Positions 29,027-57,869 of a stretch of 64,000 nucleotides of DNA are shown piece by piece. Under the pieces are notes generated by a model that saw only the letters and a program-made list of their open reading frames with translations, was not told the DNA's origin and did not search any database. The position numbers and the translations under genes were made by a program. Source of the DNA: Candidatus Kapaibacterium sp. (GTDB lineage: Bacteria; Bacteroidota; Ignavibacteria; Kapaibacteriales; UBA2268). Location: contig OY761611.1 in the NCBI GenBank assembly GCA_963664875.1, positions 1,760,958-1,824,957 on the forward strand, in the 5' to 3' direction. Position 1 is the stretch's first letter. The number at the start of each line of letters is the position of its first letter.

Positions 29027-29965
29027 CTAACTGTCCATCTCCTGAACAATAGTAAAGAGACCTTTGTTTCTATATACTTCACAAATCTCTTCAGCGTATT
29101 TTTCGGAAAAATATCTTTCGAGCGAGAAGGCAATGCCTCCGGCAACTTGCTTTTCCTCCGCATCAGGCTTTATTTGACGAATTAGGGCAGTTTGTTCTTC
29201 GTTTTGCGGCACTATCAATACGTGGAAATAGCTTTTTGCATTTTCTCCGCTCAGATAGTGCGAGGCTATAGCATCTAACTCAGAGAAAATAATTTCCTCT
29301 TCTTTGGAGACAAGCTCATCTGCTTTTACTAATGTCTCCAATAAATCAATCAGCTGAGCCAACTGCTCATGTTTAGGTTCAGTAGCGAGGTAGTTCTGCA
29401 TACCACTCCTGAGATTGTTCAATTTATCTGCAAAAGAGAGTGCAGAATTTACTTCTGGCTGCTGCAAATTGAAATCAATATTCCATGCATTGGCAAAATC
29501 ATTTATTAACTTCTCTTCCTTTTTATCCAAATTATTATCTATCCACGCTAACTGATTGAGAATTTCAAGGATTGCTTTGGCTTCGGTTTTACCTGAAAGC
29601 GTATTAAGCAGGTAAGTCGCTTCTTTTCTCTCGAGAGTAATCGCATTTTTTATCAACTGCATGAATCCTAATTTCTTATTGCCCCCAACAAAAAAACCTG
29701 TACTGATCACAAGTAAAATCAATGTTTCGAAGATATAAATGGCATTATCCACTATTGAGGTATATTCTCCGATAATGATATATTTCACAGTCCACACCAC
29801 GAGTATAAAAAGAGACAGAGAAAGCCCCAAAATAGACTGCGACTCTGCTACTTCCCTTTCTGCTTTCCTCTTCCAAATTTTATTTACTTTCAGATACACT
29901 TCTAAAAGGGCAAAACCAAGAGCTACATATATAATCAAATCAAGTATTTTTACGATTAGTTCCAT
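29027..29965 (-). CDS. Membrane-anchored protein with TerB-like (tellurite-resistance TerB-type) repeat motifs
   Basis: Three N-terminal transmembrane helices precede soluble segments LVKADELVSKEEEIIFSELDAIA and LAWIDNNLDKKEEKLINDFA. These resemble the TerB family (KADG...E) pattern. The gene lies 5 nt downstream of the channel gene. Confidence 0.45.
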   Translation of the reverse strand: MELIVKILDLIIYVALGFALLEVYLKVNKIWKRKAEREVAESQSILGLSLSLFILVVWTVKYIIIGEYTSIVDNAIYIFETLILLVISTGFFVGGNKKLGFMQLIKNAITLERKEATYLLNTLSGKTEAKAILEILNQLAWIDNNLDKKEEKLINDFANAWNIDFNLQQPEVNSALSFADKLNNLRSGMQNYLATEPKHEQLAQLIDLLETLVKADELVSKEEEIIFSELDAIASHYLSGENAKSYFHVLIVPQNEEQTALIRQIKPDAEEKQVAGGIAFSLERYFSEKYAEEICEVYRNKGLFTIVQEMDS

Positions 29966-29970
29966 AGTGT

Positions 29971-32169
29971 TTAAACCTGCCCTTTTAGTAAGATAATTTT
30001 ATCACCGGAAAGGAGATTGCCCGATTCAATTTTTTCAATTTTATGTGAGTTATGGTTATACTTTCCAAATACTACTGCTCTTGCATCAAATTGTAATATC
30101 AGGTCTTCCGGTAAATCTTCATATTTGATTGGTGCAATTTCAAAGCTTTTGGTATTGAATATTGCTTCAATTATTTGCTTAGAATCAGGATTGAGAGCAA
30201 ACTGTGCTAAAATAGCATACGTTAGTCGCTGCAGACTTAGATAATTATCCGGCATCAAATCCTCACCGAGTTTAGTATTTACTATTTCAGCAAGAATTTC
30301 TATGTTTAGATTCTGCTTAGTCAAAATGTCTTTAATATAAGTGTAACACAGCACCGCTTCTGTGTCTGCTTTGCTAAAATCAACAAAATCGGAATAATTA
30401 ATTATATATATCCTATCGTATTTCTGCCAATCGAGTAACAAAAGCTGGTCGTAATCATTATGAAGGTAATGCCCAATAGAAATCTTGATATTATTAGTTT
30501 TGTTTGTAATTTCAGGCAACTCAGGCAAAATTTTTGGAGTAATGAGTATTTCAATATTGAAATCTTTACCGTAGCTATCCATTTCATCTATTACACTAAA
30601 CAAGTAATCATTGAAACCAATTATCAAAATATTTTTGATGGCATTATTAGTGTTAAATTCCAATTGAGTTGATTTTGAAGTTTGTCTTTTACTGATTTCC
30701 GAATACTCAAAAGATTCGGAATCATCTGCTATAGCTATCAGTTCATCACTCGTACCAATAACATAATCATGTTCCGGAAGAAACACTATTTCATTGTTAG
30801 TGCGTTTTATACCTATCAACAATGCATCTTTAAAGTTATTGATAAGATTGCCAAATGTTTGCCCTGCAGCTTTATCAATACGTTTGACATATACTTCCCT
30901 TCCTTCAAACGAAAGTAGCTCTTCATAAACTTTAAAAGTAAGAGGTTCGAGGATTGAAAGTGCAATAATTCTGCTGATAATCCCATTGTTATCAACAGGT
31001 AGAAATCTATCATTCAATATATTTTTGCAGAATGGTCTCAGTGCGGGGTTATTTAGAATAAATGAGATATAAGGCATTTTAGCTTTATTTTCAAATATTT
31101 TATGCAAGAGTAAAAGTATCTGAGTTGATTTAGAATTATCTTCATCTTCGGATATGATTATGATAGAATTAGCATATTGCACATTCGCTATTTTCAAATC
31201 ATCTTCTACAGTAGGGCTTCCGGTACGAAACGTAATGCTTAATCTGCTACTGTTTTTGATATTTTGAGAAAAATACGCAGCCATGTCCGCTTTGCTCTTT
31301 TCTGCAAGCACAACAGCAATTATTCTTTTCTTGCCCTCTAAAGACATCAGCAATTCGTTAAAAATTATACTGATGTTGTCAGACCATCCCAAAATCACAA
31401 CATGATCGGTGTCGTAGGTCTGTTTCCTGCCGGAGGCATCTAACTCACGAATATTTTCCAACTCCGAAACTAATACACCTATAAACAAATTGAGTATAAT
31501 CATACTGCCAATAACAATAAAGGAAATGTAAAATATAGATGCAATCAGAGTGTTTCCGTTTTCTATCTGGGTGGCAAGCAAATCCGGCCAACCTTCACCC
31601 GTAATTGTCTGAAACAAAGTAAGCACTGCGGAAGAAAGATCTCCATAATGCTCTGGGTCTGACACTTTGAACATGAAAACACCCATTATTCCATAGACAT
31701 AAAACAAAATAAGAATTATCAGTGCTACATAACTCATGGAAGGAAGACTCTGGAATAAGGTATTAACAAGGCGTTGCAGCGGCTTGACAAAAGAGAAAAA
31801 ACGCAGCACTCTCAGCACTCTGGTCAATCTCACTAATCTGAATACGATTACTGCCTCAACCACGGAAGATGCTTCAAACAACCACGGCAAAATGCTAAGT
31901 GCGACAATGATAAAATCAAACAAATTCCAGGCATCTTTGAAGTAGTCAAAAGGAGTGGGTTTGTTAGCATACATCTTAATAAATACCTCAGCAACAAAGA
32001 TTGAGATAATTATATTATCAACAGTATGCAGAATGTGCGACATTTCCGAGCTCAGACCGGGTATAGTTTCCAGTCCAATCAGACATGCCGAAATAAAAAT
32101 GAGAAGCATTATTGCATTTTCGAACCAGTTATTTTCTTTATTCTTTATTTTTTCAAAAAGTTGGCTCAT
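29971..32169 (-). CDS. Voltage-gated cation channel (6TM; CaV/NaV-like TGEGW selectivity filter) fused to tandem C-terminal RCK/TrkA-N-like domains
   Basis: The S4 helix RLVRLTRVLRVLRFFSF has Arg at every third position. The pore loop reads LTLFQTITGEGWPDLL. Beyond residue ~250 two Rossmann-like segments appear: HVVILGWSDNISIIFNEL and ILIIGFNDYLFSVIDEM. Confidence 0.7.
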   Translation of the reverse strand: MSQLFEKIKNKENNWFENAIMLLIFISACLIGLETIPGLSSEMSHILHTVDNIIISIFVAEVFIKMYANKPTPFDYFKDAWNLFDFIIVALSILPWLFEASSVVEAVIVFRLVRLTRVLRVLRFFSFVKPLQRLVNTLFQSLPSMSYVALIILILFYVYGIMGVFMFKVSDPEHYGDLSSAVLTLFQTITGEGWPDLLATQIENGNTLIASIFYISFIVIGSMIILNLFIGVLVSELENIRELDASGRKQTYDTDHVVILGWSDNISIIFNELLMSLEGKKRIIAVVLAEKSKADMAAYFSQNIKNSSRLSITFRTGSPTVEDDLKIANVQYANSIIIISEDEDNSKSTQILLLLHKIFENKAKMPYISFILNNPALRPFCKNILNDRFLPVDNNGIISRIIALSILEPLTFKVYEELLSFEGREVYVKRIDKAAGQTFGNLINNFKDALLIGIKRTNNEIVFLPEHDYVIGTSDELIAIADDSESFEYSEISKRQTSKSTQLEFNTNNAIKNILIIGFNDYLFSVIDEMDSYGKDFNIEILITPKILPELPEITNKTNNIKISIGHYLHNDYDQLLLLDWQKYDRIYIINYSDFVDFSKADTEAVLCYTYIKDILTKQNLNIEILAEIVNTKLGEDLMPDNYLSLQRLTYAILAQFALNPDSKQIIEAIFNTKSFEIAPIKYEDLPEDLILQFDARAVVFGKYNHNSHKIEKIESGNLLSGDKIILLKGQV

Positions 32170-32463: not shown

Positions 32464-32805
32464 ATGTCAAATTCAATCCGCACAACAGATGATTATACCA
32501 AATTAGGTTTTTGGAAAAAACTTGTCAATTCTGCACAAAAGGGCGGGAAGAAAGTTATAGAAAAGGCTCTTATTCTATACTATACTCTTAATGACAGCGA
32601 TACTCCCAAAAAGTACAAAGCTATTATTTACGGAACTTTGGGCTATTTTATAGCTCCCTTGGACGCTATCCCTGATTTTGCACCTGTGATAGGCTACAGT
32701 GATGATTTATCTGTTATTGTAGCTACTCTGATCGCAGTCTCTTCCTTCGTGAAAGAACAACACAAAGAGCTGGCACGACAAAAAATAGACAAACTTTTTG
32801 GTTAG
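32464..32805 (+). CDS. DUF1232 (YkvA-family) small membrane protein
   Basis: The signature LDAIPDFAPVIGYSDDLSVI is present. Confidence 0.6.
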   Translation: MSNSIRTTDDYTKLGFWKKLVNSAQKGGKKVIEKALILYYTLNDSDTPKKYKAIIYGTLGYFIAPLDAIPDFAPVIGYSDDLSVIVATLIAVSSFVKEQHKELARQKIDKLFG

Positions 32806-32877
32806 GAAGAGAAGGACTTTACAATAAACATATAAACCATTTTTTTATCAGCAACGTTAATCTGAGAAAATCAATAT

Positions 32878-34575
32878 TTGGATTCTATCATGGAAGGTAT
32901 TAAAGATACTTCAACTATAAGTCTGAGAAAGATATTAGGAAACGGACTTACATATCTTGTTCCGAAATTCCAAAGGGATTATTCTTGGGAAACGGAGCAC
33001 TGGGATGACTTATGGTTAGACATGATAGATTTATATAATGATGTTGAAACAAGCCATTATATGGGATATTTAGTTTTTCAGACATCAGACAATAAACTGC
33101 ACAAAATTATTGATGGACAGCAAAGGCTTACTACAATTTCTTTACTCATAATTTCTATCTTGAAGAGACTCAAAGAACTTGAAGAGACAGGTATTGATGC
33201 TGAGAAGAATAAACTTAGAAGAGAACAACTTCAAAATAGCTATATAGGATTTATCGACCCTGTTACTTTGATTGCTAAGAATAAATTAGAGCTCAATAGA
33301 AACAATGATGATTTTTACAAACATTATATTGTGCCTCTTGCAAATCTCCCTCAAAGAGGCAGAAATGCCTCAGAAAAGTTAATGAAAGCTTGTTTTGAGT
33401 GGTTTTATAAAAAAACAACTTCTCTATATAAAACCGGAGAAGAGCTAACAAGGTTTATTGAAAAAATAGTAGATAAACTTTTCTTTACGGTTATCACTGT
33501 AGGCGATGAACTAAATGCTTATAAAGTATTTGAGACATTGAATGCGAGAGGAGTTAAACTATCTACGGCTGATTTATTAAAAAACTACCTTTTTTCAATT
33601 GTTGACTCGAATGAGAAAGAAACTAGGAAAGAAGAATTTGAGCTTTTAGAGTACTTATGGAGTGAATTACTCAGGAAGCTCGGTTCTGAGAAATTGCCTG
33701 AGTACATACGATATTACTGGAACAGCAAAAATAAAACTGTAAGAAAAAATGATTTATTCAAGACATTAAAATCTAACATAAAAGATAAAGCAAACGTTTT
33801 TGCATTGTTGAGAGATTTAGTTGAGAAAGCTGATATTTTTGTTGCGATTTTAAGTCCTGAAGATGAGTATTGGAATAACCATACTTTAGAACTTCGCAAT
33901 AGCTTACGAGAATTGAAAATCTTTGGTGCAAAACAACAAATCTCTTTACTTATTTCAGGCAAAAGTAATTTGACTGACCCAAAATTTACTGAGTTAGTTA
34001 AATACTGCTCGATAGTGTATATGAGATATAATATTATTGGTGGACTTAATCCAAATGAGCAAGAAGGAATTTTCAACAAGTTAGCTTTGGATATTCAAAA
34101 CAATAAAGATTATAACAAATCTGATTTTTTGGAAATATACCCATCTGATGAAGAATTTGAAGTAGCCTTCTCAAATAAAGAATTTACAAATACCTCAAGA
34201 AACAACAAAGTTACAAAATACATCTTAACAAAAATAGAGAACTATATCTCACAGGCAGATTTTGATTTTCAGAGCGATAGAAATACGATTGAACATATTT
34301 TACCTGAAAATCCGGATGATACATGGGATATCGAAGATGATGTGCGAAATAGATGCAGATATAGACTTGGCAATCTAACATTGTTAGAAAAAAACAAAAA
34401 TTCGCATCTTAAGAACAAATCTTATGATCAGAAAAGAATTGTTTTTCAGAATTCCAAATTTGCTATAACTAAGGATATTGCGGCAGATTATTCTCATTGG
34501 GGTGAAGAAGAAATATCAAGACGTCAGAATATTCTGGCAAAAAAAGCTAAGACTATTTGGAGAATAAGTTTTTAG
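32878..34575 (+). CDS. DUF262-DUF1524 fusion protein (GmrSD-family putative type IV restriction endonuclease)
   Basis: The N-terminal DUF262 has the DGQQR motif (IIDGQQRLTTISLLI). The C-terminal DUF1524 has a His-Me-finger-like segment TIEHILPENP...LGNLTLLEKNKNSHLKNKSY. Confidence 0.7.
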   Translation: MDSIMEGIKDTSTISLRKILGNGLTYLVPKFQRDYSWETEHWDDLWLDMIDLYNDVETSHYMGYLVFQTSDNKLHKIIDGQQRLTTISLLIISILKRLKELEETGIDAEKNKLRREQLQNSYIGFIDPVTLIAKNKLELNRNNDDFYKHYIVPLANLPQRGRNASEKLMKACFEWFYKKTTSLYKTGEELTRFIEKIVDKLFFTVITVGDELNAYKVFETLNARGVKLSTADLLKNYLFSIVDSNEKETRKEEFELLEYLWSELLRKLGSEKLPEYIRYYWNSKNKTVRKNDLFKTLKSNIKDKANVFALLRDLVEKADIFVAILSPEDEYWNNHTLELRNSLRELKIFGAKQQISLLISGKSNLTDPKFTELVKYCSIVYMRYNIIGGLNPNEQEGIFNKLALDIQNNKDYNKSDFLEIYPSDEEFEVAFSNKEFTNTSRNNKVTKYILTKIENYISQADFDFQSDRNTIEHILPENPDDTWDIEDDVRNRCRYRLGNLTLLEKNKNSHLKNKSYDQKRIVFQNSKFAITKDIAADYSHWGEEEISRRQNILAKKAKTIWRISF

Positions 34576-34655
34576 TCAAATCAATTATCCATTCTTCTCT
34601 ACGCAATTTGTATATTTGTTTTTCGTACTAAGTAGAAAATTCTATTGAGCGTGAA

Positions 34656-36686
34656 ATGGGTGATTTTAAATTACAGTCTAAATATAAGCCGTCTGGTGAC
34701 CAGCCTACTGCTATCAAGGAGCTGACAGAAGCTGTCGAAAGAGGTGACAAACATCAGGTTTTGCTTGGTGTTACCGGGTCGGGTAAAACTTTTACCATAT
34801 CTAATTTGATAAAAAATGTGCAGCGTCCCACTCTTGTCATTTCTCCTAATAAAACTCTTGCAGCTCAGCTTTTTGGCGAATTGAAGGCTTTTTTCCCTGA
34901 AAACTCAGTAGAATATTTCATTTCCTACTATGATTACTACCAGCCGGAAGCATATATAGTTACTTCCGATACTTATATTGAAAAAGACTTTTCTATAAAC
35001 GACGAAATCGACCGTTTGCGTCTTCGTGCTACTTCTGCTTTGGTTGAGGATAGGCGTGATGTGATAGTTGTAGCTTCTGTTAGTTCAATCTATTCCATAG
35101 GTAGAAAGCAGGACTTTGTGGATAGCCTTTATCATGTTTATGTCGGCAAAAAAGTTGATAGACAAGCGATTTTATATAAACTGACTGACTTATATTATAC
35201 AAGAAATGATTTCGAATTTCAGCGCGGTACTTTCCGTGTCCGCGGCGATGTTATAGATATTATCCCTGCGTATGAAAACCAGCTTGGTATTCGCATAGAG
35301 CTTTTCGGAGATGAGATAGACAAAGTTTCTTATATAGATGCTCTGACAGGAAAGGTCGTTCAGAACCTGCAGGGTACAAAAATATTCCCGGCTAAGCTTT
35401 TTGTAACAGGTGACACTCAACTAAAAACTGCAATGCAGAAAATAAGAGATGAGCTATATGACAGATTAAAAGAATTGCGTAGTCAGGATAAGTTAGTAGA
35501 AGCACAACGCCTCGAGCAGCGTACTCTTTTTGATTTGGAGATGATGAAGGAAGTAGGTTATTGCTCTGGTATTGAGAATTATTCAATGCACATTTCAGGC
35601 AGAGACTTTGGCGAGAGACCTCACTGTCTTTTCGATTTCTTCCCGGATGACTATTTGCTTGTAATTGACGAAAGTCACGTTACTTTGCCTCAGCTAAGAG
35701 CGATGTATAATGGCGACCGCAAGCGAAAAACTAATCTTGTGGAACATGGTTTCCGCCTTCCTTCAGCAATTGAAAATAGGCCAATGAAGTTTGAAGAGTT
35801 TGAGGCTATGGTGAATCAGGCTGTGTATGTAAGTGCGACACCAGGGCCTTATGAATTAGAAAAAGCAGAGGGTGTAGTGGTCGAGCAGGTTATCCGCCCA
35901 ACCGGATTATTAGATCCTGAGATTGATGTTAGACCAATATCTAATCAAATAGACAATCTTCTTTTCGAAATTCGCAAAAGGCAGGAAAAAGGCGAAAGAG
36001 TACTCGTTACTACTCTAACCAAGCGTATGGCGGAAGACTTGACTGATTACCTAAGTAATTTAGATGTAAAAGTAGCTTATATCCACTCAGATATAGACAC
36101 TCTTGCACGAGTAGAAATCATACGTGATTTGCGTCTGGGCGAGTTTGAAGTATTAGTTGGTGTAAACCTGCTTCGCGAGGGCTTAGACTTACCTGAAGTA
36201 TCGCTTGTTGCTGTACTCGATGCTGATAAAGAAGGCTTCCTTCGCTCCGAAACATCTTTGCTTCAGATTGCCGGAAGAACTGCACGTAATGCTGAGGGGC
36301 GCGTAATTTTATATGCTGATAGGATTACAAGATCTATGCAGGCTTTGATTGACGAAACAAACCGTCGCCGTAAACTGCAAACCGAATACAACGAAAAGCA
36401 TGGCATAAATCCTGTTACAGTATTCAAATCCCTGGAAGAAATTCTAAGCTCTACTTCTATAGCTGATGTAAGAAAAGACAGCAATAAGAGAGATTTAGCT
36501 TACGGAGTCCACAAAAATAAAGAGATAAAAGTAGCTGACCCACTTGCTGAATATATGAGTAAAGAACAGCGAAAAGAGCTAATTGAACAAATGTTTGTCG
36601 AAATGAAAAAAGCCGCCAAAGATTTGGACTTCGAACGTGCTGCAGAGTTGAGAGATGAGATACAAAGACAGCAGGAAATGGTGTAG
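34656..36686 (+). CDS. uvrB: Excinuclease ABC subunit B
   Basis: The N-terminus reads [42 protein letters not shown], with the Walker A and helicase motifs. The C-terminal UvrB/UvrC-interaction segment ends [14 protein letters not shown]. Confidence 0.95.
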
Positions 36687-45114: not shown

Positions 45115-46743
45115 TTACATTTTCCTGTATTTTCCATCTTTTAATTCCAATTGCAGATACCGGAGGTAGCTATCTTCCGCAAATTTCGTTTGATGCAAAA
45201 AATAATCTTTGTGAATTGGCAATTGCTCCAAATCGCCTCGGAGCACTTTGTGTGTGTTGAATATCTTTTGGAAGATAAAATTTATGATTTTACTATTCAG
45301 CAAATCGGCAAGCTGACTGTGAGTGATACCAGCGTCCTCGTGCAATATCAGCATATTGGCACTATTTAAAAAAAAGCTTTGCTTTCTGTCGCATACAAAA
45401 GACAGTTTCGAGGATATAAACTTATAAATCAGCTTCTCTTTAGCCTGATAAAGATGAATTGGAGCTACCTGTTGGTACAAGCTCAAATCTGCAGGTATGT
45501 AATTGGAAGCATTTTTCAAACCACCTTCGCTTATGTCTGCCCCTTTGTAAACAGGGATATAACCCGCTTGGTTTTCTGACTGTAAAAATTTAGAGTTACT
45601 TCCAGTTACAATACCCATGCCCCATTCGGCTCTACTTTGCAAAGTAATATGCGGCTGATTGTAAATGTGTTCAATGATTTTACTATCCTCGACAGAACAG
45701 AAAAAATTAAAGATAGCCTTAGGATTTTGTTTGAAAGATTCGCGTTCCCTAAAGTGCGAATAATCTGCTCCTTCGCAGAGAATATCATGCTTTTCTTTTG
45801 AGCATTTTTGCAGAGTGATTGCCTGAGCTTTTGTAATCAGCCCGCCAAAACATTTCCCATAATCTTTCATTTTCAATATTTTATTCTGCAATGCTTTGTT
45901 GCGGGCGTCTTCAAATATTTGAATATTGAAAAAAGCTTCCTGCAGTAAAAATCCTAAATACCCACCCTCTTTCAATGACTTTATCGCTGCAAAGAAAAAC
46001 AGGGAACTCGTGTCATTGCTTTTTCCGGAAGCAAAATAATTAGATAATTGTACTTTGCTTTCTGCATCAATCTTTTTTCCCCATGGCGGATTGGTAAAAA
46101 TCAAATCGAACTGCAAATCTGTCTGAGTTATATGCTTCAAAAAATCAGCATTTTGTATATTTTTACATTCTTTCCCGGTTTTTTCCAATATTCTTTGTTT
46201 GGCTATAGCTACTGCCACCGGATCGGTATCAAATCCGTAAATATTATCAGGAGAAATTCCCAATTCTAATGCTCTCATTAGAAAATTGCCGGAACCACAG
46301 CAAGGATCGCAAAATGTCAGTGCTGAGAAATCGGGCAAAAGCTCAACGCTTAACATATCTTCTACAACATCAAAAGGAGTGTAATAAATGCCTTCTTTAT
46401 TGCGAAAAGAGTCCGAAAGTTCATTTTCGTATTCCGAACCTAATATTTCCAAATCTGACTCGCCTCTTTTCAGCCTTGCAGTAATGGCTTGGGCAAGTAG
46501 ATTTTGATTGTGCTTGTCCTTGACTGATTTGTTAGCTCTGTTGTTGAGTTTATAAGTCCCTGCTACTTCATGCAGAAATTTCTCAAGAGAAACTGCACAC
46601 ACCATTCCTTTGGAAGTCTGAACCAAATACTTCGTTTTGATCCAATTACGGATAGTGGCTACTGAGACTTTAGCCTGCTTGGCTGCTTCTTTAATAGGTA
46701 TTTCCGTGACCTTGGGATTGATAGAATTTTTCGCAGGTTGCAT
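45115..46743 (-). CDS. N6-adenine-specific DNA methyltransferase (gamma-class, NPPW motif) with an N-terminal helix-turn-helix
   Basis: Motif I is FCDPCCGSGNFLMRALE. Motif IV is FDLIFTNPPWGKK. The N-terminal AKQAKVSVATIRNWIK is an HTH. A target-recognition-like region of about 250 aa lies at the C-terminus. No restriction endonuclease gene is adjacent. Confidence 0.8.
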   Translation of the reverse strand: MQPAKNSINPKVTEIPIKEAAKQAKVSVATIRNWIKTKYLVQTSKGMVCAVSLEKFLHEVAGTYKLNNRANKSVKDKHNQNLLAQAITARLKRGESDLEILGSEYENELSDSFRNKEGIYYTPFDVVEDMLSVELLPDFSALTFCDPCCGSGNFLMRALELGISPDNIYGFDTDPVAVAIAKQRILEKTGKECKNIQNADFLKHITQTDLQFDLIFTNPPWGKKIDAESKVQLSNYFASGKSNDTSSLFFFAAIKSLKEGGYLGFLLQEAFFNIQIFEDARNKALQNKILKMKDYGKCFGGLITKAQAITLQKCSKEKHDILCEGADYSHFRERESFKQNPKAIFNFFCSVEDSKIIEHIYNQPHITLQSRAEWGMGIVTGSNSKFLQSENQAGYIPVYKGADISEGGLKNASNYIPADLSLYQQVAPIHLYQAKEKLIYKFISSKLSFVCDRKQSFFLNSANMLILHEDAGITHSQLADLLNSKIINFIFQKIFNTHKVLRGDLEQLPIHKDYFLHQTKFAEDSYLRYLQLELKDGKYRKM

Positions 46744-47044: not shown

Positions 47045-47527
47045 TTGACACAACAAAAAAGCAAAAAATATATCAAAGGAGATTTGAAAATGACAATGAT
47101 TAAATTCGACCCGGTTAGACATTTTGAGAATATGACTCGCAAAATGCAACACATAGCCAACGAGGCTGAAAAAGGTTTTGTATTCGAAAAAGGTGGTTTC
47201 AATCCGAGAGTTGACATCACTGAATACGACAACAAAGTAGTGGTCTATGCGGAAGTGCCCGGTTTGGCAAAAGAAGACGTTAAAGTATCGGTAAACGAAG
47301 AAAGAATTTTGACTATCAAAGGCGAAAAAAAGAAACCAGAGCTTGCTGAAGGCGAATCGCTCATCCGCATGGAACGCTCTTTTGGTGAATTCTCCAGATC
47401 ATTTATGCTCCCTGAAGATATTGATTTGGAAAACATCAAGGCTTCTTTCAAACATGGTCTGTTAGAATTGACTTTGAGCAAAAAAGAACCCGAAGAGCCA
47501 AAAGAGATTAATATCACAATCGAATAG
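47045..47527 (+). CDS. Small heat-shock protein (Hsp20/alpha-crystallin family), copy 1
   Basis: The alpha-crystallin domain reads PRVDITEYDNKVVVYAEVPGLAKEDVKV...GLLELTLSKKEP. The likely true start is the ATG at about 47090 (MTMIKFDP), which has an AAGGAG SD. Confidence 0.9.
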   Translation: MTQQKSKKYIKGDLKMTMIKFDPVRHFENMTRKMQHIANEAEKGFVFEKGGFNPRVDITEYDNKVVVYAEVPGLAKEDVKVSVNEERILTIKGEKKKPELAEGESLIRMERSFGEFSRSFMLPEDIDLENIKASFKHGLLELTLSKKEPEEPKEINITIE

Positions 47528-47714
47528 TTTAAATAAGAGAGTCCGGTGTTTGACAGACAACCCCATAGCAAAGACATTAGACAGATGTAGCTCGTTTTCA
47601 TAGCACCAGTATATTAAAAGAAACAGAATGACAGTATATCGGCATCGGACTCTTCTTTAACAAAAAGTATTAAAGAAAATAAAAAAAAGCAAAAAATAAA
47701 AAGGAGATATAAAA

Positions 47715-48164
47715 ATGGCAGTAGTAAGATTTGATCCTTTCAGAGGATTTGAAAGAATAAATAAGAGAATGGGGCAATTTGTTGACGAAATGGAAAAAGG
47801 TTTTAGAGTAGAGTATGGATCATTTGCCCCCACGATTGACATAGTTGAAGACGAAAAAACTTTGAAGCTCTTCGCGGAGCTTCCCGGTATTCCGAAAGAG
47901 CAGGTCAAAATCACTGTAAACGAAGACAAAGTGCTTATAATCAAAGGCGAAAAGAAAAGATGCGAGGAAGAAACTGACGAATGCAAGGAAAAAGCTTATA
48001 TCAGAGCAGAAAGAAGTTTTGGTGAGTTTTCCCGCTCTTTCCAGCTACCGGAAAATATCAATACCGACTCAATCAATGCTAAATTCGAAAATGGTGTGCT
48101 AAGCATATCTTTGAGTAAAAAAGAGCCGGTAAAACCAAAAGAAGTTGAAGTAACGATAGACTAA
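47715..48164 (+). CDS. Small heat-shock protein (Hsp20 family), copy 2
   Basis: The sequence reads PTIDIVEDEKTLKLFAELPGIPKEQVKI...GVLSISLSKKEP. The SD is AAAGGAG. Confidence 0.9.
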   Translation: MAVVRFDPFRGFERINKRMGQFVDEMEKGFRVEYGSFAPTIDIVEDEKTLKLFAELPGIPKEQVKITVNEDKVLIIKGEKKRCEEETDECKEKAYIRAERSFGEFSRSFQLPENINTDSINAKFENGVLSISLSKKEPVKPKEVEVTID

Positions 48165-48287
48165 AATTGAATTGATTGTATTTTGTTCAGGTCTCGAACA
48201 ACAGCAAGGAATAAAGAATCTTAAGTTTTTTACCCAAAAACAAATTGACCAAATAGTAATGTTCAACAACCTAATCGGAGGTGTATT

Positions 48288-48740
48288 GTGACTTTAGTAA
48301 AATATGATCCGTTTACCGGTGTAGATGGCTTAATCCGCAGAATGGACAGATGGATGGATGGCTTTAACAGAAGAAGCATGGTGTTTAATACATCAGCATG
48401 GATGCCTAAAATTGACGTACACGAAGAGGCAGATAGATTTTGGATTTCTGCGGAACTACCCGGCATAGCAAAAGAAGACGTTAAGGTAAAAGTAAACGAC
48501 GACAATATGCTTATCATCTCCGGCGAAAAGAGAAGCGTATTTGAGGAAAATGATGAAAAAGATGATAAGCGTCTGATTCGCTCTGAAAGATCTTACGGCA
48601 GTTTCACGCGCTCATTCATTTTGCCTGACAATGTTGATAAAGACAGCATCAAAGCAAAATATGAAAACGGCGTGTTGAATATGGAAATATTGAAGAAAGA
48701 ACCGGAAAAACCAAGCGAAACAGAAATAACTATAGACTAA
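48288..48740 (+). CDS. Small heat-shock protein (Hsp20 family), copy 3
   Basis: The sequence reads PKIDVHEEADRFWISAELPGIAKEDVKV...GVLNMEILKKEP. The start codon is GTG, with an SD of GGAGGTG. Confidence 0.9.
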   Translation: MTLVKYDPFTGVDGLIRRMDRWMDGFNRRSMVFNTSAWMPKIDVHEEADRFWISAELPGIAKEDVKVKVNDDNMLIISGEKRSVFEENDEKDDKRLIRSERSYGSFTRSFILPDNVDKDSIKAKYENGVLNMEILKKEPEKPSETEITID

Positions 48741-51815: not shown

Positions 51816-52181
51816 CTAAGTTTCTTTGTTTCGAGACATATTCCCAAAAAACGCTAAAAAAGTTCCATATGATTGAACAATCATGCTTGGTGACATCAGT
51901 ATTTGGATAATATCGAAATCATTTGCACTATTTAGAAAAAAAAGATACAAAGAAATAAGAAGCAATATTTCCGATGCATACCTCATCATAATATATACTT
52001 TTTTTTCTTTAAAATTGAAAAACAATCTGTTAATTAAGACAATATTGCTAAACAATAATATTAAATGTGCTTCTGAGTTTGCATACTTATCAAAAATAAA
52101 TATACTATACAGTAAGAACAACTCTATACTTGCTAAAACAATGAAACCGGTCACCAATAGTGCAGTATTTCTTTTTTTCAT
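51816..52181 (-). CDS. Hypothetical small membrane protein (121 aa)
   Basis: About three hydrophobic helices are predicted. A minus-strand terminator follows about 55 nt downstream. The region is AT-rich, so confidence is low. Confidence 0.3.
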   Translation of the reverse strand: MKKRNTALLVTGFIVLASIELFLLYSIFIFDKYANSEAHLILLFSNIVLINRLFFNFKEKKVYIMMRYASEILLLISLYLFFLNSANDFDIIQILMSPSMIVQSYGTFLAFFGNMSRNKET

Positions 52182-52247
52182 AATATTCTACTTCTTTTTA
52201 ATCACCGAAAAAACGAGCAAAACTGTTATATATTAAGGTAGCCGTGT

Positions 52248-52484
52248 TCATTGCTTCCTTCTTTTTAGCAGTGCATCTTTGCTATATTTTACTCCATAGA
52301 TGATGACATGCGGAAGAATAGCTATATTAATCATAAAAAAGTAAACATGCAGCAAATCTAACTCTATCAAAACTAAGACCGCTATAAATATCAGCACTTC
52401 TATATATAGATATATCGGTTTCATGTCATACCTGCGATTATAAATTACAATTCGCAAAATACACAATATTATATTCATTTTCAT
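52248..52484 (-). CDS. Hypothetical small membrane protein (78 aa)
   Basis: About two hydrophobic helices are predicted. It has the same orientation as its neighbours. Confidence 0.25.
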   Translation of the reverse strand: MKMNIILCILRIVIYNRRYDMKPIYLYIEVLIFIAVLVLIELDLLHVYFFMINIAILPHVIIYGVKYSKDALLKRRKQ

Positions 52485-52778
52485 ATAGAATACAGCATAG
52501 AGTGTAAGTTTTATGCTCTATTAGCTACTATTTACCTATACTACCTGCTAAAAGCTACCTGAGAAGCCTGACCGTCTAAGTGCTGGATGCCAAGGCTGTT
52601 AAATCTAAAGTTTTGCCTTTTAAGGAGTATTTGGAGTTAAATGTTTTTATTATTTATGACTATGCTGATAGTTTGTTTCAATTATAGTAATCAAAGGGCT
52701 CTGTTTATCATTGTCGAAGAACATGATATTACATAATCAGAAAAAGTTCTACAAATACAGTTCAGAATCAATAGACTA

Positions 52779-52967
52779 TCAAACAAAAAGCCAAAACAAA
52801 ACAACTACTAATGCCACATAGCAACTGAAAAAAATATACTTTTTATTTCTGTTGCCAAAGAATATATTCGATACTTTGGCATATAAAACAGGATTGTTCT
52901 TTTCTGTTTTATGTTTCAGAATAAAAATCGAAAATAATATTCCAAAATACAATAAAAACAATACCAT
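52779..52967 (-). CDS. Hypothetical small membrane protein (62 aa)
   Basis: It consists of two hydrophobic segments. It has the same orientation as, and lies downstream of, the paralogous lipoprotein genes. Confidence 0.2.
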   Translation of the reverse strand: MVLFLLYFGILFSIFILKHKTEKNNPVLYAKVSNIFFGNRNKKYIFFSCYVALVVVLFWLFV

Positions 52968-53040
52968 AGGATTTACCCTAAAATTATTTTTTGAATTCTA
53001 TGTAGGTTTAGGTCGAAAACCTAAACCTACGTATGTTTGA

Positions 53041-53940
53041 TTAATCCCACCAACCGAAAAGATATTTACCTGCTGCGGCAACTCCACAAACAACTGCATT
53101 GGTCACCACTACAGCAGAACTACCAGAGGCAGCTGCAGCACCTGGCAAAGCTCCGATTCCTCCTGTACAAACACCACCTGCAATTGCTCCAGCAGCATCA
53201 GCTAATACAGTTCCAACTGCACAAGCAGCAACAGCAGCTTCTGTTTTTCCAATCTTTTTAGAAACTACATTTTGTTCTTTTGCTCCTAACAACTTGCTTA
53301 CGTTAAATTCATAAGAATGTTTCACGATAGCAATAGTTTTAAGAGCCATAGTTTCTTCTTCATCCCATGTCTCTTGTAAAATCTTACTTTCTACTGCTTG
53401 AATTCGATTAGCAATACTTGCCAAAGTAAACATCTCCTCTCCTTCAATAATATTTCGTAATTCATCAAAAATGTAAACTACCATATTAGCATCTTTCTCA
53501 GAAGTACAGCCATATATGGTCTCTCTTAATGAGGATGTCAGAAAATAGCCTGTGTTTAGTTCGTTTACTGCTGTTTTAAATCCGTTAGATATTAGGAAAT
53601 CATCCACTTCTTGTTCAGATACGTTTAGGGACTGATTATTAAGAGCTCCAGTGATAATAGTCAACACTTTGCTATTAAAGTTGTCATCTTCATAGTTAGA
53701 AGTACTAGTAAACTCACCTGATTGGTAGTAAGGCAATAATTGCTGAAAAACTTCTTCCATAGCTTTATTATGTATTTCGCCTAAGTAATCATAGGGATTT
53801 ACTAACTGTACTTGGACACTATTTGTTATAGTATTGTTTGACATTGCAGGAACAACAGATTCATTGTCTTCTGTACAACTCATCAAACCAAAGATTGAAA
53901 GCGATAATGCCATTAAGGCAAGGATAATTTTTGTTTTCAT
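53041..53940 (-). CDS. Secreted lipoprotein with a C-terminal Gly/Ala-rich glycine-zipper tail (bacteriocin/microcin-like)
   Basis: The N-terminus MKTKIILALMALSLSIFGLMSC has a lipobox. The C-terminus is AVAACAVGTVLADAAGAIAGGVCTGGIGALPGAAAASGSSAVVVTNAVVCGVAAAGKYLFGWWD. Confidence 0.6.
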   Translation of the reverse strand: MKTKIILALMALSLSIFGLMSCTEDNESVVPAMSNNTITNSVQVQLVNPYDYLGEIHNKAMEEVFQQLLPYYQSGEFTSTSNYEDDNFNSKVLTIITGALNNQSLNVSEQEVDDFLISNGFKTAVNELNTGYFLTSSLRETIYGCTSEKDANMVVYIFDELRNIIEGEEMFTLASIANRIQAVESKILQETWDEEETMALKTIAIVKHSYEFNVSKLLGAKEQNVVSKKIGKTEAAVAACAVGTVLADAAGAIAGGVCTGGIGALPGAAAASGSSAVVVTNAVVCGVAAAGKYLFGWWD

Positions 53941-53975
53941 TTTGATATCTGTAATTAGTTTTTACATTAAGTAAT

Positions 53976-54102
53976 TGAATTACTATTGCTTTTAAGCGAA
54001 AAAGCAATAATTTACAGTGCATGATTTCGTGTAAGTCAAACATTTCGAAATCACGTGCGTTTTGTAGCCGATTACTCCCCAGTATCGGCTCTTTTTTTGC
54101 CG
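53976..54102 (+). repeat. Conserved upstream element, copy 1: three hairpins, the last being an intrinsic terminator on the plus strand
   Basis: Copy 1 is nearly identical to 55217-55344. The first hairpin is TATTGCTTTT...AAAAGCAATA. The second is TGATTTCG...CGAAATCA and contains the palindrome ATTTCGAAAT. The third is AGCCGATTACT-CCCC-AGTATCGGCT followed by T7. Confidence 0.7.
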
Positions 54103-54314
54103 TTTGTGTAATTTAGTTATAGTTTTTAGAACACTTTACTCCTGTTTCTTATTGAATATGATATTCCTATTTCGTAAAACTGATTTTTGAAGTTAAATGT
54201 TCCAAAATAGAACAACCATTTTGCAAAGAAAATTATTACAAGTATACTTTATAATACAAAATTAGCGAGTTAACTTTTATGTATTCATCCTATTACATAT
54301 TAGTATGCTATATT

Positions 54315-55181
54315 TTATTTTCCCCAGTTGCCTAAGTCAACTTCTCCCAACCAAACCTCAGCTATATCAGGCTCGAGTTTAACAAGCCCCATTTTAATTA
54401 ACACTTCAAGCCATGAACCAGGTAAAACAACTACACCTTTCAAGCTAATAAAACCATCAGGCATAAACTTGATATTCCCATTGCCAAACCAGAACAAACT
54501 CCCCAAAAACATTTGCATAGTCGGCTTAGTAAAGATTGGCAATTCACCTTCATAGTCCGGTTTACAGCCGGTTTGGACAAACCAAACATCTTTATCTTCA
54601 TCTATAAGATTATTCCAATATACTGCATTAGCAAGACTTAGTTCACAAGCATTAAGTAAGATACTTTTTTTCGAGGACAACAATCCAAAATCACTATTAA
54701 TTGCTTTTTTTATTTCAGTGATTTTAGAATCCATCTCAGCTATATCATTAACATTTGCAATTATATCTGCGATTTGTCTGATATAATTTTTCACTAAATC
54801 AGAAATATTCGCATTATTATAATAATCCTGTAATGAGATCGATTGTATCATTGTGTAATTTTCTACAATCCAATCGTTGAATTCTGTCGGAATTGAATTC
54901 ATATCTGAAGCTACAAATATGTTGCTCTTGTACATATTGCTAAAGCTCTGATAATCACATAATCCAATGAATTGATCTTTTAAACTAAAAAAATTATGCC
55001 AAGTTTGATTAAGCTGGTAAGAAACCTCAGTATTCAATATGCTAAGTTTTGACACATTTGAACTGCTAAATTCGCTTGAATTATCTGATGGCATTGTGTT
55101 AGAAGCTTGTTCCGTACAACTCATAAGACCAAAGATAGAAATCGATAATGCCATAATAGCAAGAATAATTTTTGTTTTCAT
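54315..55181 (-). CDS. Secreted lipoprotein paralog
   Basis: The N-terminus MKTKIILAIMALSISIFGLMSC matches the 53041..53940 gene at 19 of the first 22 residues. The rest of the protein has diverged. Confidence 0.6.
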   Translation of the reverse strand: MKTKIILAIMALSISIFGLMSCTEQASNTMPSDNSSEFSSSNVSKLSILNTEVSYQLNQTWHNFFSLKDQFIGLCDYQSFSNMYKSNIFVASDMNSIPTEFNDWIVENYTMIQSISLQDYYNNANISDLVKNYIRQIADIIANVNDIAEMDSKITEIKKAINSDFGLLSSKKSILLNACELSLANAVYWNNLIDEDKDVWFVQTGCKPDYEGELPIFTKPTMQMFLGSLFWFGNGNIKFMPDGFISLKGVVVLPGSWLEVLIKMGLVKLEPDIAEVWLGEVDLGNWGK

Positions 55182-55216
55182 ATTTTTAACTGTAATATGA
55201 TTCTACATTATTTTAT

Positions 55217-55344
55217 TGAATTCCTATTGCTTCTTTTCAAAAAAAGCAATATATTACAGTGCATGATTTCGTGTAAGTCAAACATTTCGAAATCACGTGC
55301 GTTTTGTAGCCGATTACTCCCCAGTATCGGCTCTTTTTTTGCCG
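55217..55344 (+). repeat. Conserved upstream element, copy 2
   Basis: Copy 2 is about 95% identical to 53976-54102 over roughly 125 bp. It includes the same hairpin and T-run terminator. Confidence 0.7.
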
Positions 55345-55455
55345 AAATTATTTTTTACTTTTTGTCAAGAAATATATCACCTATAAATCAATGAATAAAC
55401 TATTTTCGTCTGTTATTATAGTCAAATATCAACAGCACTAATTTAGCAATTTCTC

Positions 55456-55495
55456 AAAAAAAAAAAAAACGAAAATGCTATGTTTCTTTAGCATT
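55456..55495 (-). terminator. Rho-independent terminator (minus strand) about 200 bp beyond the esterase terminator
   Basis: The plus strand carries an A14 run followed by AATGCTA...TAGCATT. On the minus strand this is a hairpin followed by T14. Confidence 0.5.
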
Positions 55496-55671
55496 CATAA
55501 TTCAAACTATCCTTGATAACATGGGCTATGCAATGACTTATATTCTAACATAATGATTTAACACTATTTACCGCTGAATTTCTGTCGTTATATAGTATTA
55601 TTTTTACAATAAGAACTATTATGAATGAGTATTTTAATACACCTATAATTTATTCATTATTTTATTCATTT

Positions 55672-55710
55672 TTACAAAAAAAGAGCATAAGACCTGCATC
55701 CTATGCTCTT
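55672..55710 (-). terminator. Rho-independent terminator after the esterase gene (minus strand)
   Basis: The stem AGAGCATA...TATGCTCT is preceded on the plus strand by A-rich sequence, which gives a T-run on the minus strand. Confidence 0.7.
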
Positions 55711-55733
55711 TGATATGAATATCTGTATAGCAA

Positions 55734-57596: not shown

Positions 57597-57637
57597 CTCA
57601 AGTTCTCCCGATTAGTAACAGTAAATACAAAATGTTT

Positions 57638-57666
57638 TATATGATTAGCACAAATATATGTAAAAC
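57638..57666 (-). promoter_or_regulatory. Promoter-like element upstream of the esterase gene, duplicated at 60462-60490
   Basis: On the minus strand it reads TTTTACATATATTTGTGCTAATCATATA. This contains a TAtaTTTG -7-like box of the FCB-group type. Confidence 0.4.
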
Positions 57667-57869
57667 TGTGAACATAAAACAATTAAAAATGACGATTCGT
57701 TTTAACAAGAATCGTCATCAAATAAATAAGTGAAATATCTATATAAACATCTTCTTTTTTCAGGTTTTCTCAACTTTGTGTAAAGGATAGTTCGATATCA
57801 TTATCTTTGGTGCAGTAAGTGCTAGAACGATAGCAAAACCATACTTAAATAAATTGGATAACATGATAA

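What the first reader, a model, noticed from the sequence alone, without database searches (positions are those of the whole stretch)
32464..34575. GmrSD-family (DUF262-DUF1524) putative type IV restriction enzyme next to a DUF1232 membrane protein: a small candidate defence islet
The 565 aa protein has the DGQQR motif of the DUF262 NTPase/ParB-like domain. It also has a C-terminal DUF1524 His-Me-finger nuclease region (TIEHILPENP...NKNSHLKNKS). This is the GmrSD/BrxU/SspE-like architecture used for modification-dependent restriction. It lies between an ion-channel/TerB-like pair and uvrB. A DUF1232 gene sits 72 bp upstream on the same strand. No cognate methyltransferase is adjacent, which is consistent with a type IV enzyme.
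Basis: established knowledge. Interest (0 to 1): 0.5.

Follow-up and report, generated by a model that had tools for sequence, protein, structure and literature searches.

The report
Stand-alone HEC-06-type GmrSD anti-phage nuclease
This is an ordinary, intact member of an already described family of single-gene anti-phage nucleases (GmrSD-like, subtype HEC-06). It was picked up horizontally and sits alone just upstream of the DNA-repair gene uvrB, and the small membrane-protein gene beside it is a resident neighbour, not part of a defence islet.

Summary
Window 32890-34575 (+) encodes a 561-aa protein (565 aa from the upstream TTG). It has Pfam GmrSD_N plus GmrSD_C, an invariant DGQQR motif and an EH...N...N His-Me motif. 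A 113-aa DUF1232 gene lies upstream and uvrB downstream.

The protein matches PADLOC model HEC-06 over its full length (698 bits). It is 35% identical and collinear with the E. coli HEC-06 that was shown to block phage. All four residues whose mutation abolished that defence are conserved. Its only structural neighbours are DndI, SspE and BrxU.

It is an accessory gene:
- Seven genomes share >=90%-identical UvrB. Only two carry it, and five have the same conserved uvrB leader without it.
- Its nearest relatives outside the genus are Flavobacteriales genes, mostly embedded between hsdS and hsdR.
- UvrB's nearest relatives are Kapaibacteria-like.

DUF1232 stays next to uvrB in four of the five relatives that lack the nuclease. 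It is absent from about 80 other HEC-06 loci. The "islet" reading is therefore not supported.

Most likely function: a stand-alone, NTP-dependent nuclease that restricts phage DNA, probably modified DNA. Modification dependence is inferred, not shown. Verdict: new member of a known kind, low interest.

The parts
32890..34575 (+). HEC-06-type GmrSD-like nuclease gene, 561 aa. An alternative TTG start at 32878 gives 565 aa.
   Evidence: ORF. Pfam GmrSD_N + GmrSD_C. PADLOC HEC-06 PDLC04154, 698 bits, profile positions 8-567 of 569. 35% identity over the full length to E. coli HEC-06. GC 31.3% against 36.4% for the window.
32926..33594 (+). N-terminal DUF262 / GmrSD_N (ParB-like NTPase) domain
   Evidence: Pfam PF03235, E 1.2e-36. 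Contains the invariant PKFQRDY (32962-32982) and DGQQR (33112-33126) motifs.
33112..33126 (+). DGQQR nucleotide-hydrolysis motif (D75-R79)
   Evidence: Invariant in 25 orthologues. The Q79A and R80A equivalents abolish defence in E. coli HEC-06. Aligned.
34138..34542 (+). C-terminal DUF1524 / GmrSD_C His-Me-finger nuclease domain
   Evidence: Pfam PF07510, E 2.8e-30. pLDDT is mostly 80-95 in the model.
34291..34401 (+). Catalytic E468-H469 ... N495 ... N504 of the His-Me finger
   Evidence: E468, N495 and N504 are invariant; H469 is present in 24 of 25 orthologues. The E471A and H472A equivalents abolish defence in E. coli HEC-06. Coordinates.
32464..32805 (+). DUF1232 small membrane-protein gene. 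It is a resident neighbour of uvrB in this lineage and NOT part of the defence cassette.
   Evidence: Pfam PF06803. Present next to or near uvrB in L085, L092, L086 and L087, which lack the nuclease. No PADLOC hit.
34602..34655 (+). Conserved uvrB leader/promoter region. It marks the right-hand limit of the inserted cassette.
   Evidence: The same ~54-nt sequence (CGCAATTTGTATATTTG...GAGCGTGAA) precedes uvrB in five genomes, with or without the nuclease gene.
34656..36686 (+). uvrB, the housekeeping gene that anchors the insertion site
   Evidence: Pfam UvrB_inter, UvrB, Helicase_C, UVR. 94-97% aa identity to relatives.

Best explanation
The gene encodes a stand-alone, single-protein anti-phage nuclease of the HEC-06 branch of the GmrSD-like family.

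Proposed mechanism:
- The N-terminal DUF262 (ParB-like) domain binds and hydrolyses NTP through the DGQQR motif. This acts as the sensor and switch.
- The helical middle region links it to a C-terminal DUF1524 His-Me-finger nuclease (E468/H469, N495, N504). That nuclease nicks or cleaves invading phage DNA.
- The target is most probably DNA carrying a non-host base modification, i.e. type IV restriction logic. Unmodified host DNA would then be spared without a cognate methyltransferase.

Origin:
- The gene is a bare ~1.8-kb one-gene cassette. An ancestor of this Kapaibacteria-like lineage acquired it horizontally, and the nearest donors look Flavobacteriales-like.
- It was inserted immediately upstream of the uvrB leader. 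It has since been kept under purifying selection in two diverged species and lost, or never gained, in their relatives.
- DUF1232, the ion channel and uvrB are unrelated residents.

Shown here: family membership, intact catalytic motifs, accessory status, discordant phylogeny, defence-embedded relatives.
Inferred: nuclease and NTPase activity, anti-phage role in this host, modification dependence.
For: Family and motifs:
- Pfam GmrSD_N + GmrSD_C. PADLOC HEC-06, 698 bits, full length.
- 35% identity, E 2e-120, collinear with E. coli HEC-06. Q78/R79 and E468/H469 align to the residues whose mutation abolished defence.
- Motifs are invariant across 25 orthologues from several phyla.
- The AlphaFold model's only significant PDB neighbours are DndI (TM 0.58), SspE and BrxU (sequence search).

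Published function:
- HEC-06 gives orders-of-magnitude EOP reduction in E. coli lacking R-M systems, and it acts alone.
- HEC-06 blocks T4. A 22%-identical Bacteroides homologue protects against T4 but not against unmodified T4-GT7.

Accessory status and HGT:
- Present in 2 of 7 genomes with >=90% UvrB identity. The uvrB leader is conserved across filled and empty sites.
- UvrB's nearest outside relatives are Kapaibacterium-like at 78%. The nuclease's are Wandonia, Fluviicola and Brumimicrobium at 65-67%.
- GC is 31% against 36% for the window.
- Homologues occur in >=10 phyla, on 23 plasmids, in 2 Listeria phages and in an E. coli Rac-type prophage.

Defence context of relatives:
- Four of the closest homologues lie between hsdS and hsdR (L005, L006, L089, L090). 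One lies in an Abi_C / type I R-M / Schlafen island (L088).
- Among ~80 species-level loci, 6 have PglZ directly downstream and 4 have PglX-type MTases upstream.

Selection:
- Window versus L002: pN 0.125, pS 0.72. The gene is under purifying selection.
Against: - No experiment exists on this protein or on any close (>40% identical) relative.
- Modification dependence has only been shown for a 22%-identical homologue. It is implied by T4 sensitivity for the E. coli protein.
- The best-matching solved structure is DndI. Its nuclease attacks unmodified DNA and is restrained by host phosphorothioate.
- PADLOC 'Orf5' (= DndI-type) model PDLC02687 scores almost as high (664 bits) as the HEC-06 model.
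- In two loci (L019, L026) a homologue is sandwiched between an HTH regulator and a DNA methylase. This could mean some family members are modification-blocked rather than modification-dependent.
- The N-terminal domain of the structure model has low confidence (pLDDT <50 for residues 1-32 and 120-158).
- The rest of the genome was not available. A distant partner modification system cannot be excluded.
Confidence: 0.72

Rival explanations
1. DndI/SspE-like mode. The nuclease reads a modification on the HOST's own DNA, such as phosphorothioate or a methyl mark made elsewhere in the genome. It attacks DNA that lacks that mark, so it is the restriction half of a split modification-restriction pair rather than a type IV enzyme.
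For: - The closest solved structure by sequence and fold is DndI.
- PADLOC Orf5 (= dnd-cluster ORF5/DndI) model PDLC02687 scores 664 bits.
- The aromatic position equivalent to the PT-sensing Y25 of DndI is an invariant Phe in PKFQRDY.
- L019 and L026 have an HTH-nuclease-methylase trio.
- An apparently solitary N6-adenine MTase lies 10.5 kb away in the window.
Against: - No dnd or ssp genes are in the 64-kb window. None appear among the recurrent neighbours of ~80 homologous loci.
- E. coli HEC-06, which is closer (35% against ~20% identity), works alone in E. coli K-12 lacking R-M systems without reported toxicity.
- The cassette was gained and lost as a single gene, which is hard to do for a nuclease that kills unmodified hosts.
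Confidence: 0.13
2. Two-gene defence islet. DUF1232 and the nuclease work together, for example as a membrane sensor or effector plus a nuclease.
For: The genes are on the same strand, 72-84 bp apart in the window. DUF1232 is also within 2.6 kb of the nuclease in L002.
Against: - DUF1232 sits beside or near uvrB in L085, L092, L086 and L087, which have no nuclease.
- In L002 two opposite-strand genes (MBOAT, LB_356) separate the pair.
- DUF1232 was not detected in any of ~80 other loci by tblastn. It is not among the recurrent upstream Pfam families.
- It has no PADLOC hit.
- HEC-06 functions alone.
Confidence: 0.03
3. Housekeeping or DNA-repair role linked to uvrB. On this reading the gene is a domesticated DUF262 nuclease co-expressed with nucleotide excision repair.
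For: The gene lies directly upstream of uvrB, on the same strand and 80 bp away, in two diverged genomes. No terminator is predicted between them. A Ferruginibacter homologue also has uvrB within 1 kb.
Against: - It is absent from 5 of 7 close relatives, whose uvrB leader is intact.
- In Ferruginibacter uvrB is divergent, and an HTH gene intervenes.
- uvrB is not a recurrent neighbour in ~80 loci.
- The family is validated as defence and is carried on plasmids and prophages.
Confidence: 0.04
4. The gene is an inactive relic of a former R-M-embedded cassette and no longer functions.
For: It has lost the type I R-M context seen in its nearest relatives. No promoter above chance was detected.
Against: - The ORF is full length with all catalytic residues intact.
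- pN/pS is about 0.17, with saturated synonymous sites, between two species that both keep it.
- Most homologues in the survey are also stand-alone.
Confidence: 0.05

Closest known systems
HEC-06 (E. coli MOD1-EC1687 WP_096851903.1; Payne et al., bioRxiv 10.1101/2024.01.29.577857)
   Same: - Same length (560 against 561 aa) and domain order.
- Collinear 35% identity, E 2e-120.
- Same DGQQR and E-H motifs at equivalent positions. Single-gene system.
- Full-length hit to PADLOC HEC-06 model PDLC04154.
   Different: - Only 35% identical. The nuclease motif reads EHILP instead of EHICP.
- Not embedded in an Hma, BREX or R-M system or in a prophage. It sits alone upstream of uvrB in a Kapaibacteria-like chromosome.
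- Untested experimentally.
DndI (= ORF5 of the Salmonella Cerro 87 dnd/dpt cluster; PDB 9JFL; PMC11662687)
   Same: - Best sequence (E 2e-17) and fold (TM 0.58) match among solved structures.
- DUF262 with DGQQR plus a DUF1524 HNH nuclease. Similar size (596 aa).
   Different: - About 20% identity.
- DndI is co-transcribed with dndFGH, next to dndBCDE. It is toxic without host phosphorothioate.
- No dnd genes are in the window or in homologues' neighbourhoods.
- The PT-sensing Tyr25 position is Phe here.
BrxU (= HEC-05; PDB 7P9K), a GmrSD-family type IV enzyme embedded in BREX
   Same: - DUF262-DUF1524 architecture.
- Homologues of the window protein occupy the same PglX-...-PglZ position in 4-6 loci.
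- Acts alone against modified DNA, according to the literature quoted.
   Different: - Weak structural match (TM 0.35, 14% identity).
- The paper reports that HEC-06 lacks BrxU's RLFDS motif and has a different predicted quaternary arrangement.
SspE (PDB 6JIV/7DRS) and EcoCT GmrSD
   Same: Same two catalytic domains. SspE's C-terminal domain aligns at E 1e-5 to 1e-7 and matches by fold at E 9e-9.
   Different: - SspE is ~770 aa and depends on SspABCD phosphorothioation.
- PADLOC SspE and mREase_IV models score only 53-75 bits, against 698 for HEC-06.

Membership tests
GmrSD-like family (DUF262 + DUF1524) | N-terminal DUF262/GmrSD_N domain above the Pfam gathering score | tested here: met
   PF03235, 127.2 bits against a cut-off of 33.2, profile positions 2-199 of 199.
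GmrSD-like family (DUF262 + DUF1524) | C-terminal DUF1524/GmrSD_C His-Me domain above the Pfam gathering score, in the same polypeptide | tested here: met
   PF07510, 105.5 bits against a cut-off of 23, profile positions 1-137 of 138.
GmrSD-like family (DUF262 + DUF1524) | DGQQR NTP-hydrolysis motif and (D/E)H...N...N nuclease motif intact | tested here: met
   D75-R79, E468, H469, N495, N504. Invariant or near-invariant in 25 orthologues.
GmrSD-like family (DUF262 + DUF1524) | Fold resembles solved family members | tested here: met
   The only Foldseek hits with E<1e-3 are DndI, SspE and BrxU. The model's mean pLDDT is 76.5, and the N-terminal domain is weaker.
HEC-06 subfamily | Full-length match to the PADLOC HEC-06 profile as best hit | tested here: met
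   PDLC04154, E 1.9e-210, 698 bits, residues 10-564 against profile positions 8-567 of 569. Top of 31 hits.
HEC-06 subfamily | Collinear homology to the experimentally tested protein, with the four functionally essential residues conserved | tested here: met
   35% identity over 558 columns. Q78, R79, E468 and H469 align with Q79, R80, E471 and H472. Caveat: the E. coli S3 copy used for comparison is identical to the tested gene over the 399 nt available. The remainder was not verified.
HEC-06 subfamily | Confers phage resistance as a single gene | not testable with these tools
   Shown only for the E. coli protein and for a 22%-identical Bacteroides homologue.
Type IV (modification-dependent) restriction enzyme | Cleaves modified but not unmodified DNA | not testable with these tools
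   Inferred from T4 against T4-GT7 data on a distant homologue, and from the gene's stand-alone gain and loss without a partner.
Type IV (modification-dependent) restriction enzyme | No cognate methyltransferase required or adjacent | tested here: met
   No MTase lies within 10 kb. The nearest is at 45115-46743 and is separated by unrelated genes.
DndI / Orf5 (PT-sensing Dnd accessory nuclease) | Linked to dndBCDE/dndFGH genes | tested here: not met
   No Dnd or Ssp models hit any of 48 window ORFs. There were only weak generic PbeA, AriA and helicase-type hits. None recur in neighbours of ~80 loci. The rest of the genome was not seen.
DndI / Orf5 (PT-sensing Dnd accessory nuclease) | PT-sensing Tyr (Y25 in DndI) in the N-terminal hydrophobic patch | tested here: inconclusive
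   The equivalent residue is an invariant Phe (F27) within PKFQRDY. It is aromatic but not Tyr, and the functional meaning is unknown.
Two-gene DUF1232 + GmrSD 'islet' | Co-occurrence of the two genes across genomes | tested here: not met
   DUF1232 is present without the nuclease in 4 relatives. The nuclease is present without DUF1232 in ~80 loci.

The most novel reading that the evidence does not exclude
The immediate upstream flank of uvrB may be a preferred landing site for cargo genes in this lineage. It holds the nuclease in two species and a T9SS-secreted protein in a third, and it is empty in four genomes. The nuclease's retention there for a long time (synonymous sites are saturated) could reflect functional coupling. 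For example, read-through co-expression with uvrB would mean that nicks made by the defence nuclease are handled by, or signalled to, nucleotide excision repair. Alternatively, this Bacteroidota-type clade of HEC-06 may recognise a phage DNA modification not yet described.
Probability: 0.06. Interest if true: 0.5.

Novelty: new member of a known kind. Interest (0 to 1): 0.2.

Why it matters
- It adds a clean, datable example of single-gene gain and loss of a validated defence nuclease. The lineage is poorly studied (Kapaibacteria-like Bacteroidota). Filled and empty sites can be compared base by base.
- It shows that HEC-06 genes travel as bare cassettes. The nearest relatives sit between hsdS and hsdR, whereas this copy stands alone.
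- It is a caution against reading 'guilt by adjacency' into a single genome. The DUF1232 neighbour looked like a partner but is simply a resident gene.
- It does not open a new question about defence mechanisms.

Tried and rejected
- I looked for terminal direct or inverted repeats, tRNA genes, integrases or transposases bounding the cassette. Only chance-level short repeats were found, no tRNA occurs in the window, and there are no mobility genes nearby.
- The sigma-70 promoter and intrinsic terminator scan was at shuffle level and uninformative.
- NCBIfam has no model for the protein.
- tblastn with single Hsd proteins was too insensitive to census R-M neighbours. I replaced it with a Pfam scan of predicted neighbour ORFs.
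- I tested whether ~113-aa ORFs upstream of homologues in L018, L019, L026 and L031 were cryptic DUF1232 genes. They are HTH_3 regulators or XisI.
- I tested whether uvrB linkage recurs. It does only in L026, in a divergent orientation.
- A whole-window PADLOC scan found no second defence system apart from a solitary MTase. The weak ZorB, mad, PbeA, DinG and AriA hits are probably generic OmpA/MotB, helicase and ABC-ATPase domain matches (inferred). I did not assign them to individual ORFs.
- The source genome and L002's genome were not in the species-representative genome collection. I therefore recovered lineage relatives through the UvrB 90% cluster instead.
Full report
**Observation**

The two ORFs exist exactly as described. 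A 113-aa ORF lies at 32464-32805 (+). A 565-aa ORF lies at 32878-34575 (+), counted from a TTG. Public gene calls use the ATG at 32890, giving 561 aa. I use 561-aa numbering below.

- Pfam places the small protein in DUF1232 (E 2.9e-13).
- Pfam places the large one in GmrSD_N/DUF262 (E 1.2e-36) and GmrSD_C/DUF1524 (E 2.8e-30). Both cover essentially the whole profile.
- DGQQR is at nt 33112-33126, TIEHILPEN at 34285-34311 and LGNLTLLEKNKN at 34366-34401.
- The left neighbours are a 732-aa Ion_trans/Castor_Poll_mid/RCK channel and a 312-aa protein. The TerB match of the latter is below Pfam's threshold.
- The right neighbour is uvrB.
- No methyltransferase is adjacent. The nearest is a type II N6-adenine MTase about 10.5 kb away.

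**What the protein is**

- PADLOC gives a full-length best hit to HEC-06 (PDLC04154, 698 bits).
- Next comes 'Orf5' model PDLC02687 (664 bits). SspE and generic type IV models are far behind at 53-75 bits.
- 'Orf5' is ORF5 of the Salmonella Cerro 87 dpt/dnd cluster. It is now called DndI.
- HEC-06 was defined by Payne et al. as a GmrSD-like gene embedded in Hma systems. The E. coli representative reduced plaquing by orders of magnitude in E. coli lacking R-M systems. It lost activity with Q79A, R80A, E471A or H472A.
- I recovered that E. coli gene. The supplement gives its accession and its first 399 nt, which are 100% identical in 30 E. coli chromosomes. In strain S3 it lies in a Rac-type prophage.
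- The window protein aligns to it end to end at 35% identity (E 2e-120). Q78, R79, E468 and H469 are in register.
- An alignment of 25 orthologues (51-79% identity) shows these residues, plus PKFQRDY, N495 and N504, to be invariant or nearly so.
- An AlphaFold model has mean pLDDT 76.5. The C-terminal two-thirds are confident and parts of the N-domain are not.
- Its significant PDB neighbours are only DndI (TM 0.58), SspE and BrxU. This agrees with the sequence search.

**Is it core or accessory?**

- UvrB from the window belongs to a >=90% identity cluster with seven full-length variants.
- I examined all seven loci:
  - Window/L001: DUF1232 - nuclease - uvrB.
  - L002: DUF1232 - <LB_356 - <MBOAT - nuclease - uvrB.
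  - L086 and L087: the L002 layout without the nuclease.
  - L085 and L092: DUF1232 directly followed by uvrB.
  - L093: MBOAT - a T9SS-tailed protein - uvrB.

- The nuclease is therefore present in 2 of 7 genomes.
- The ~54-nt leader in front of uvrB (window 34602-34655) is conserved in all five loci I compared at the base level, filled or empty. The cassette's right edge is therefore within ~25 nt of its stop codon.
- No repeats, tRNA or mobility genes flank the cassette.
- Between the window and L002, synonymous sites are saturated (pS 0.72-0.83). The nuclease's pN (0.125) is similar to DUF1232's (0.106) and higher than UvrB's (0.035).
- My inference: the pattern fits one ancestral insertion followed by vertical descent under purifying selection, with loss in relatives. 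Two gains at one site are not excluded.

**Origin**

- UvrB's nearest relatives outside the cluster are Kapaibacterium-like MAGs at 78% (taxonomy).
- The nuclease's nearest relatives outside the genus are Flavobacteriales: Wandonia, Fluviicola and Brumimicrobium at 65-67%. A Kapaibacterium homologue is only 47% identical.
- The gene's GC content is 31.3%, against 36.4% for the window and 40.4% for uvrB.
- Homologues at 44-57% identity occur in at least ten phyla. They also occur on 23 plasmids, and at 28% identity in two Listeria phages.
- Together this is the signature of a horizontally mobile accessory gene.

**Context of relatives**

- Four of the closest homologues sit between hsdS and hsdR of type I R-M operons (L005 Wandonia, L006 Fluviicola, L089, L090). 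L089's operon is on an element with an integrase and MobC.
- L088 is flanked by Abi_C, SatD, a type I R-M system, a Schlafen/AlbA_2 protein and an nSTAND NTPase.
- I ran a Pfam census of the nearest predicted neighbours in ~80 species-level loci:
  - PglZ directly downstream in 6 loci.
  - PglX-type MTases upstream in 4.
  - HsdR-type proteins in 2-3.
  - AAA_21 in 3.
  - The remainder are diverse housekeeping genes.
- Stand-alone copies like the window's are therefore common.
- DUF1232 and uvrB are not recurrent partners. The ~113-aa ORFs upstream of some homologues are HTH_3 regulators or XisI.

**DUF1232 and the 'islet'**

- DUF1232 is retained next to or near uvrB in four relatives that lack the nuclease.
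- In L002 it is separated from the nuclease by two opposite-strand genes.
- It has no PADLOC hit, and it is absent from the other loci.
- It is a resident gene of this chromosome region. The islet reading is not supported.
- The rest of the window has no other defence system. It holds a solitary MTase and weak hits that look like generic domain matches.

**Mechanism**

Best-supported reading (confidence about 0.72 for the whole statement): a single-protein, NTP-dependent His-Me nuclease that restricts phage DNA.

- Defence-family membership is very likely.
- Modification dependence is perhaps 0.55-0.6 likely.

Support for type IV logic:
- The reported block of T4 by HEC-06.
- The T4 against T4-GT7 contrast for a 22%-identical Bacteroides homologue.
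- The fact that the gene is gained and lost alone.

The main rival is a DndI/SspE-like, host-modification-sensing mode.
- For it: DndI is the closest solved structure, the 'Orf5' profile scores high, and two loci show HTH-nuclease-methylase trios.
- Against it: dnd and ssp genes are absent in the window and in homologues' neighbourhoods, and HEC-06 is autonomous.

**Verdict**

- Right: the family assignment and the defence role.
- Wrong: the 'islet'.
- Still inferred: the 'type IV' label.

This is a new member of a known and already validated kind. Interest is low (0.2).

Noticed in passing
window 45115-46743 (-): A 542-aa type II gamma-class N6-adenine DNA methyltransferase. It hits PADLOC MTase_II PDLC03356 at 622 bits and Pfam N6_Mtase + Eco57I + TaqI_C. 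Its neighbours are a GntR regulator/ABC transporter cluster and three tandem HSP20 genes, so it is apparently a solitary (orphan) MTase.
   Followed up: partly
L019:9669-13375 and L026:9663-13417: In a Saprospiraceae MAG and a Ferruginibacter MAG the HEC-06 homologue forms a tight trio. An HTH_3 regulator overlaps its start by 4 nt, and a 560-570-aa N6_N4_Mtase follows 25-28 bp downstream. This is an R-M-like arrangement and suggests that some family members may be paired with a methylase.
   Followed up: partly
window 34602-34655; L002, L085, L086, L087 upstream of uvrB: A ~54-nt uvrB leader is conserved in five genomes whose uvrB coding DNA is only ~80% identical. It contains GTATATTTG, which resembles the Bacteroidota -7 promoter element TAnnTTTG (from my own knowledge, not tested).
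   Followed up: partly
L086:3303-4967 and L087:3302-4967; L093:1874-3433; L002:7394-9768: The DUF1232-uvrB neighbourhood is a variable spot in this lineage. A LysM/CHAP hydrolase plus three small ORFs occur in L086/L087. An MBOAT + LB_356 pair occurs in L002, L086 and L087 but not in the window or L085; L093 shows MBOAT, with its short contig ending just beyond. A T9SS-tailed 519-aa protein lies directly upstream of uvrB in L093.
   Followed up: no
L091:9001-10683 (E. coli S3, NZ_CP010228.1): The E. coli HEC-06 gene lies inside a Rac-type prophage, between DUF977 and a TPR protein and near sieB, kilR, recET and ralR. It is present in only 30 of 5426 complete E. coli genomes.
   Followed up: partly
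window 29027-32169 (-): A 732-aa voltage-gated-type cation channel with Castor/Pollux and RCK domains is followed by a 312-aa membrane protein with a sub-threshold TerB match. The pair is not conserved next to the nuclease in L002 and seems unrelated to defence.
   Followed up: no
window 47045-48740 (+): Three tandem HSP20/alpha-crystallin genes (160, 149 and 150 aa).
   Followed up: no
window 52000-60300: A low-GC stretch (28-32%) carries T9SS Por_Secre_tail proteins (620-aa esterase-like, 814 aa) and two ORFs without Pfam hits. There are no PADLOC hits.
   Followed up: partly
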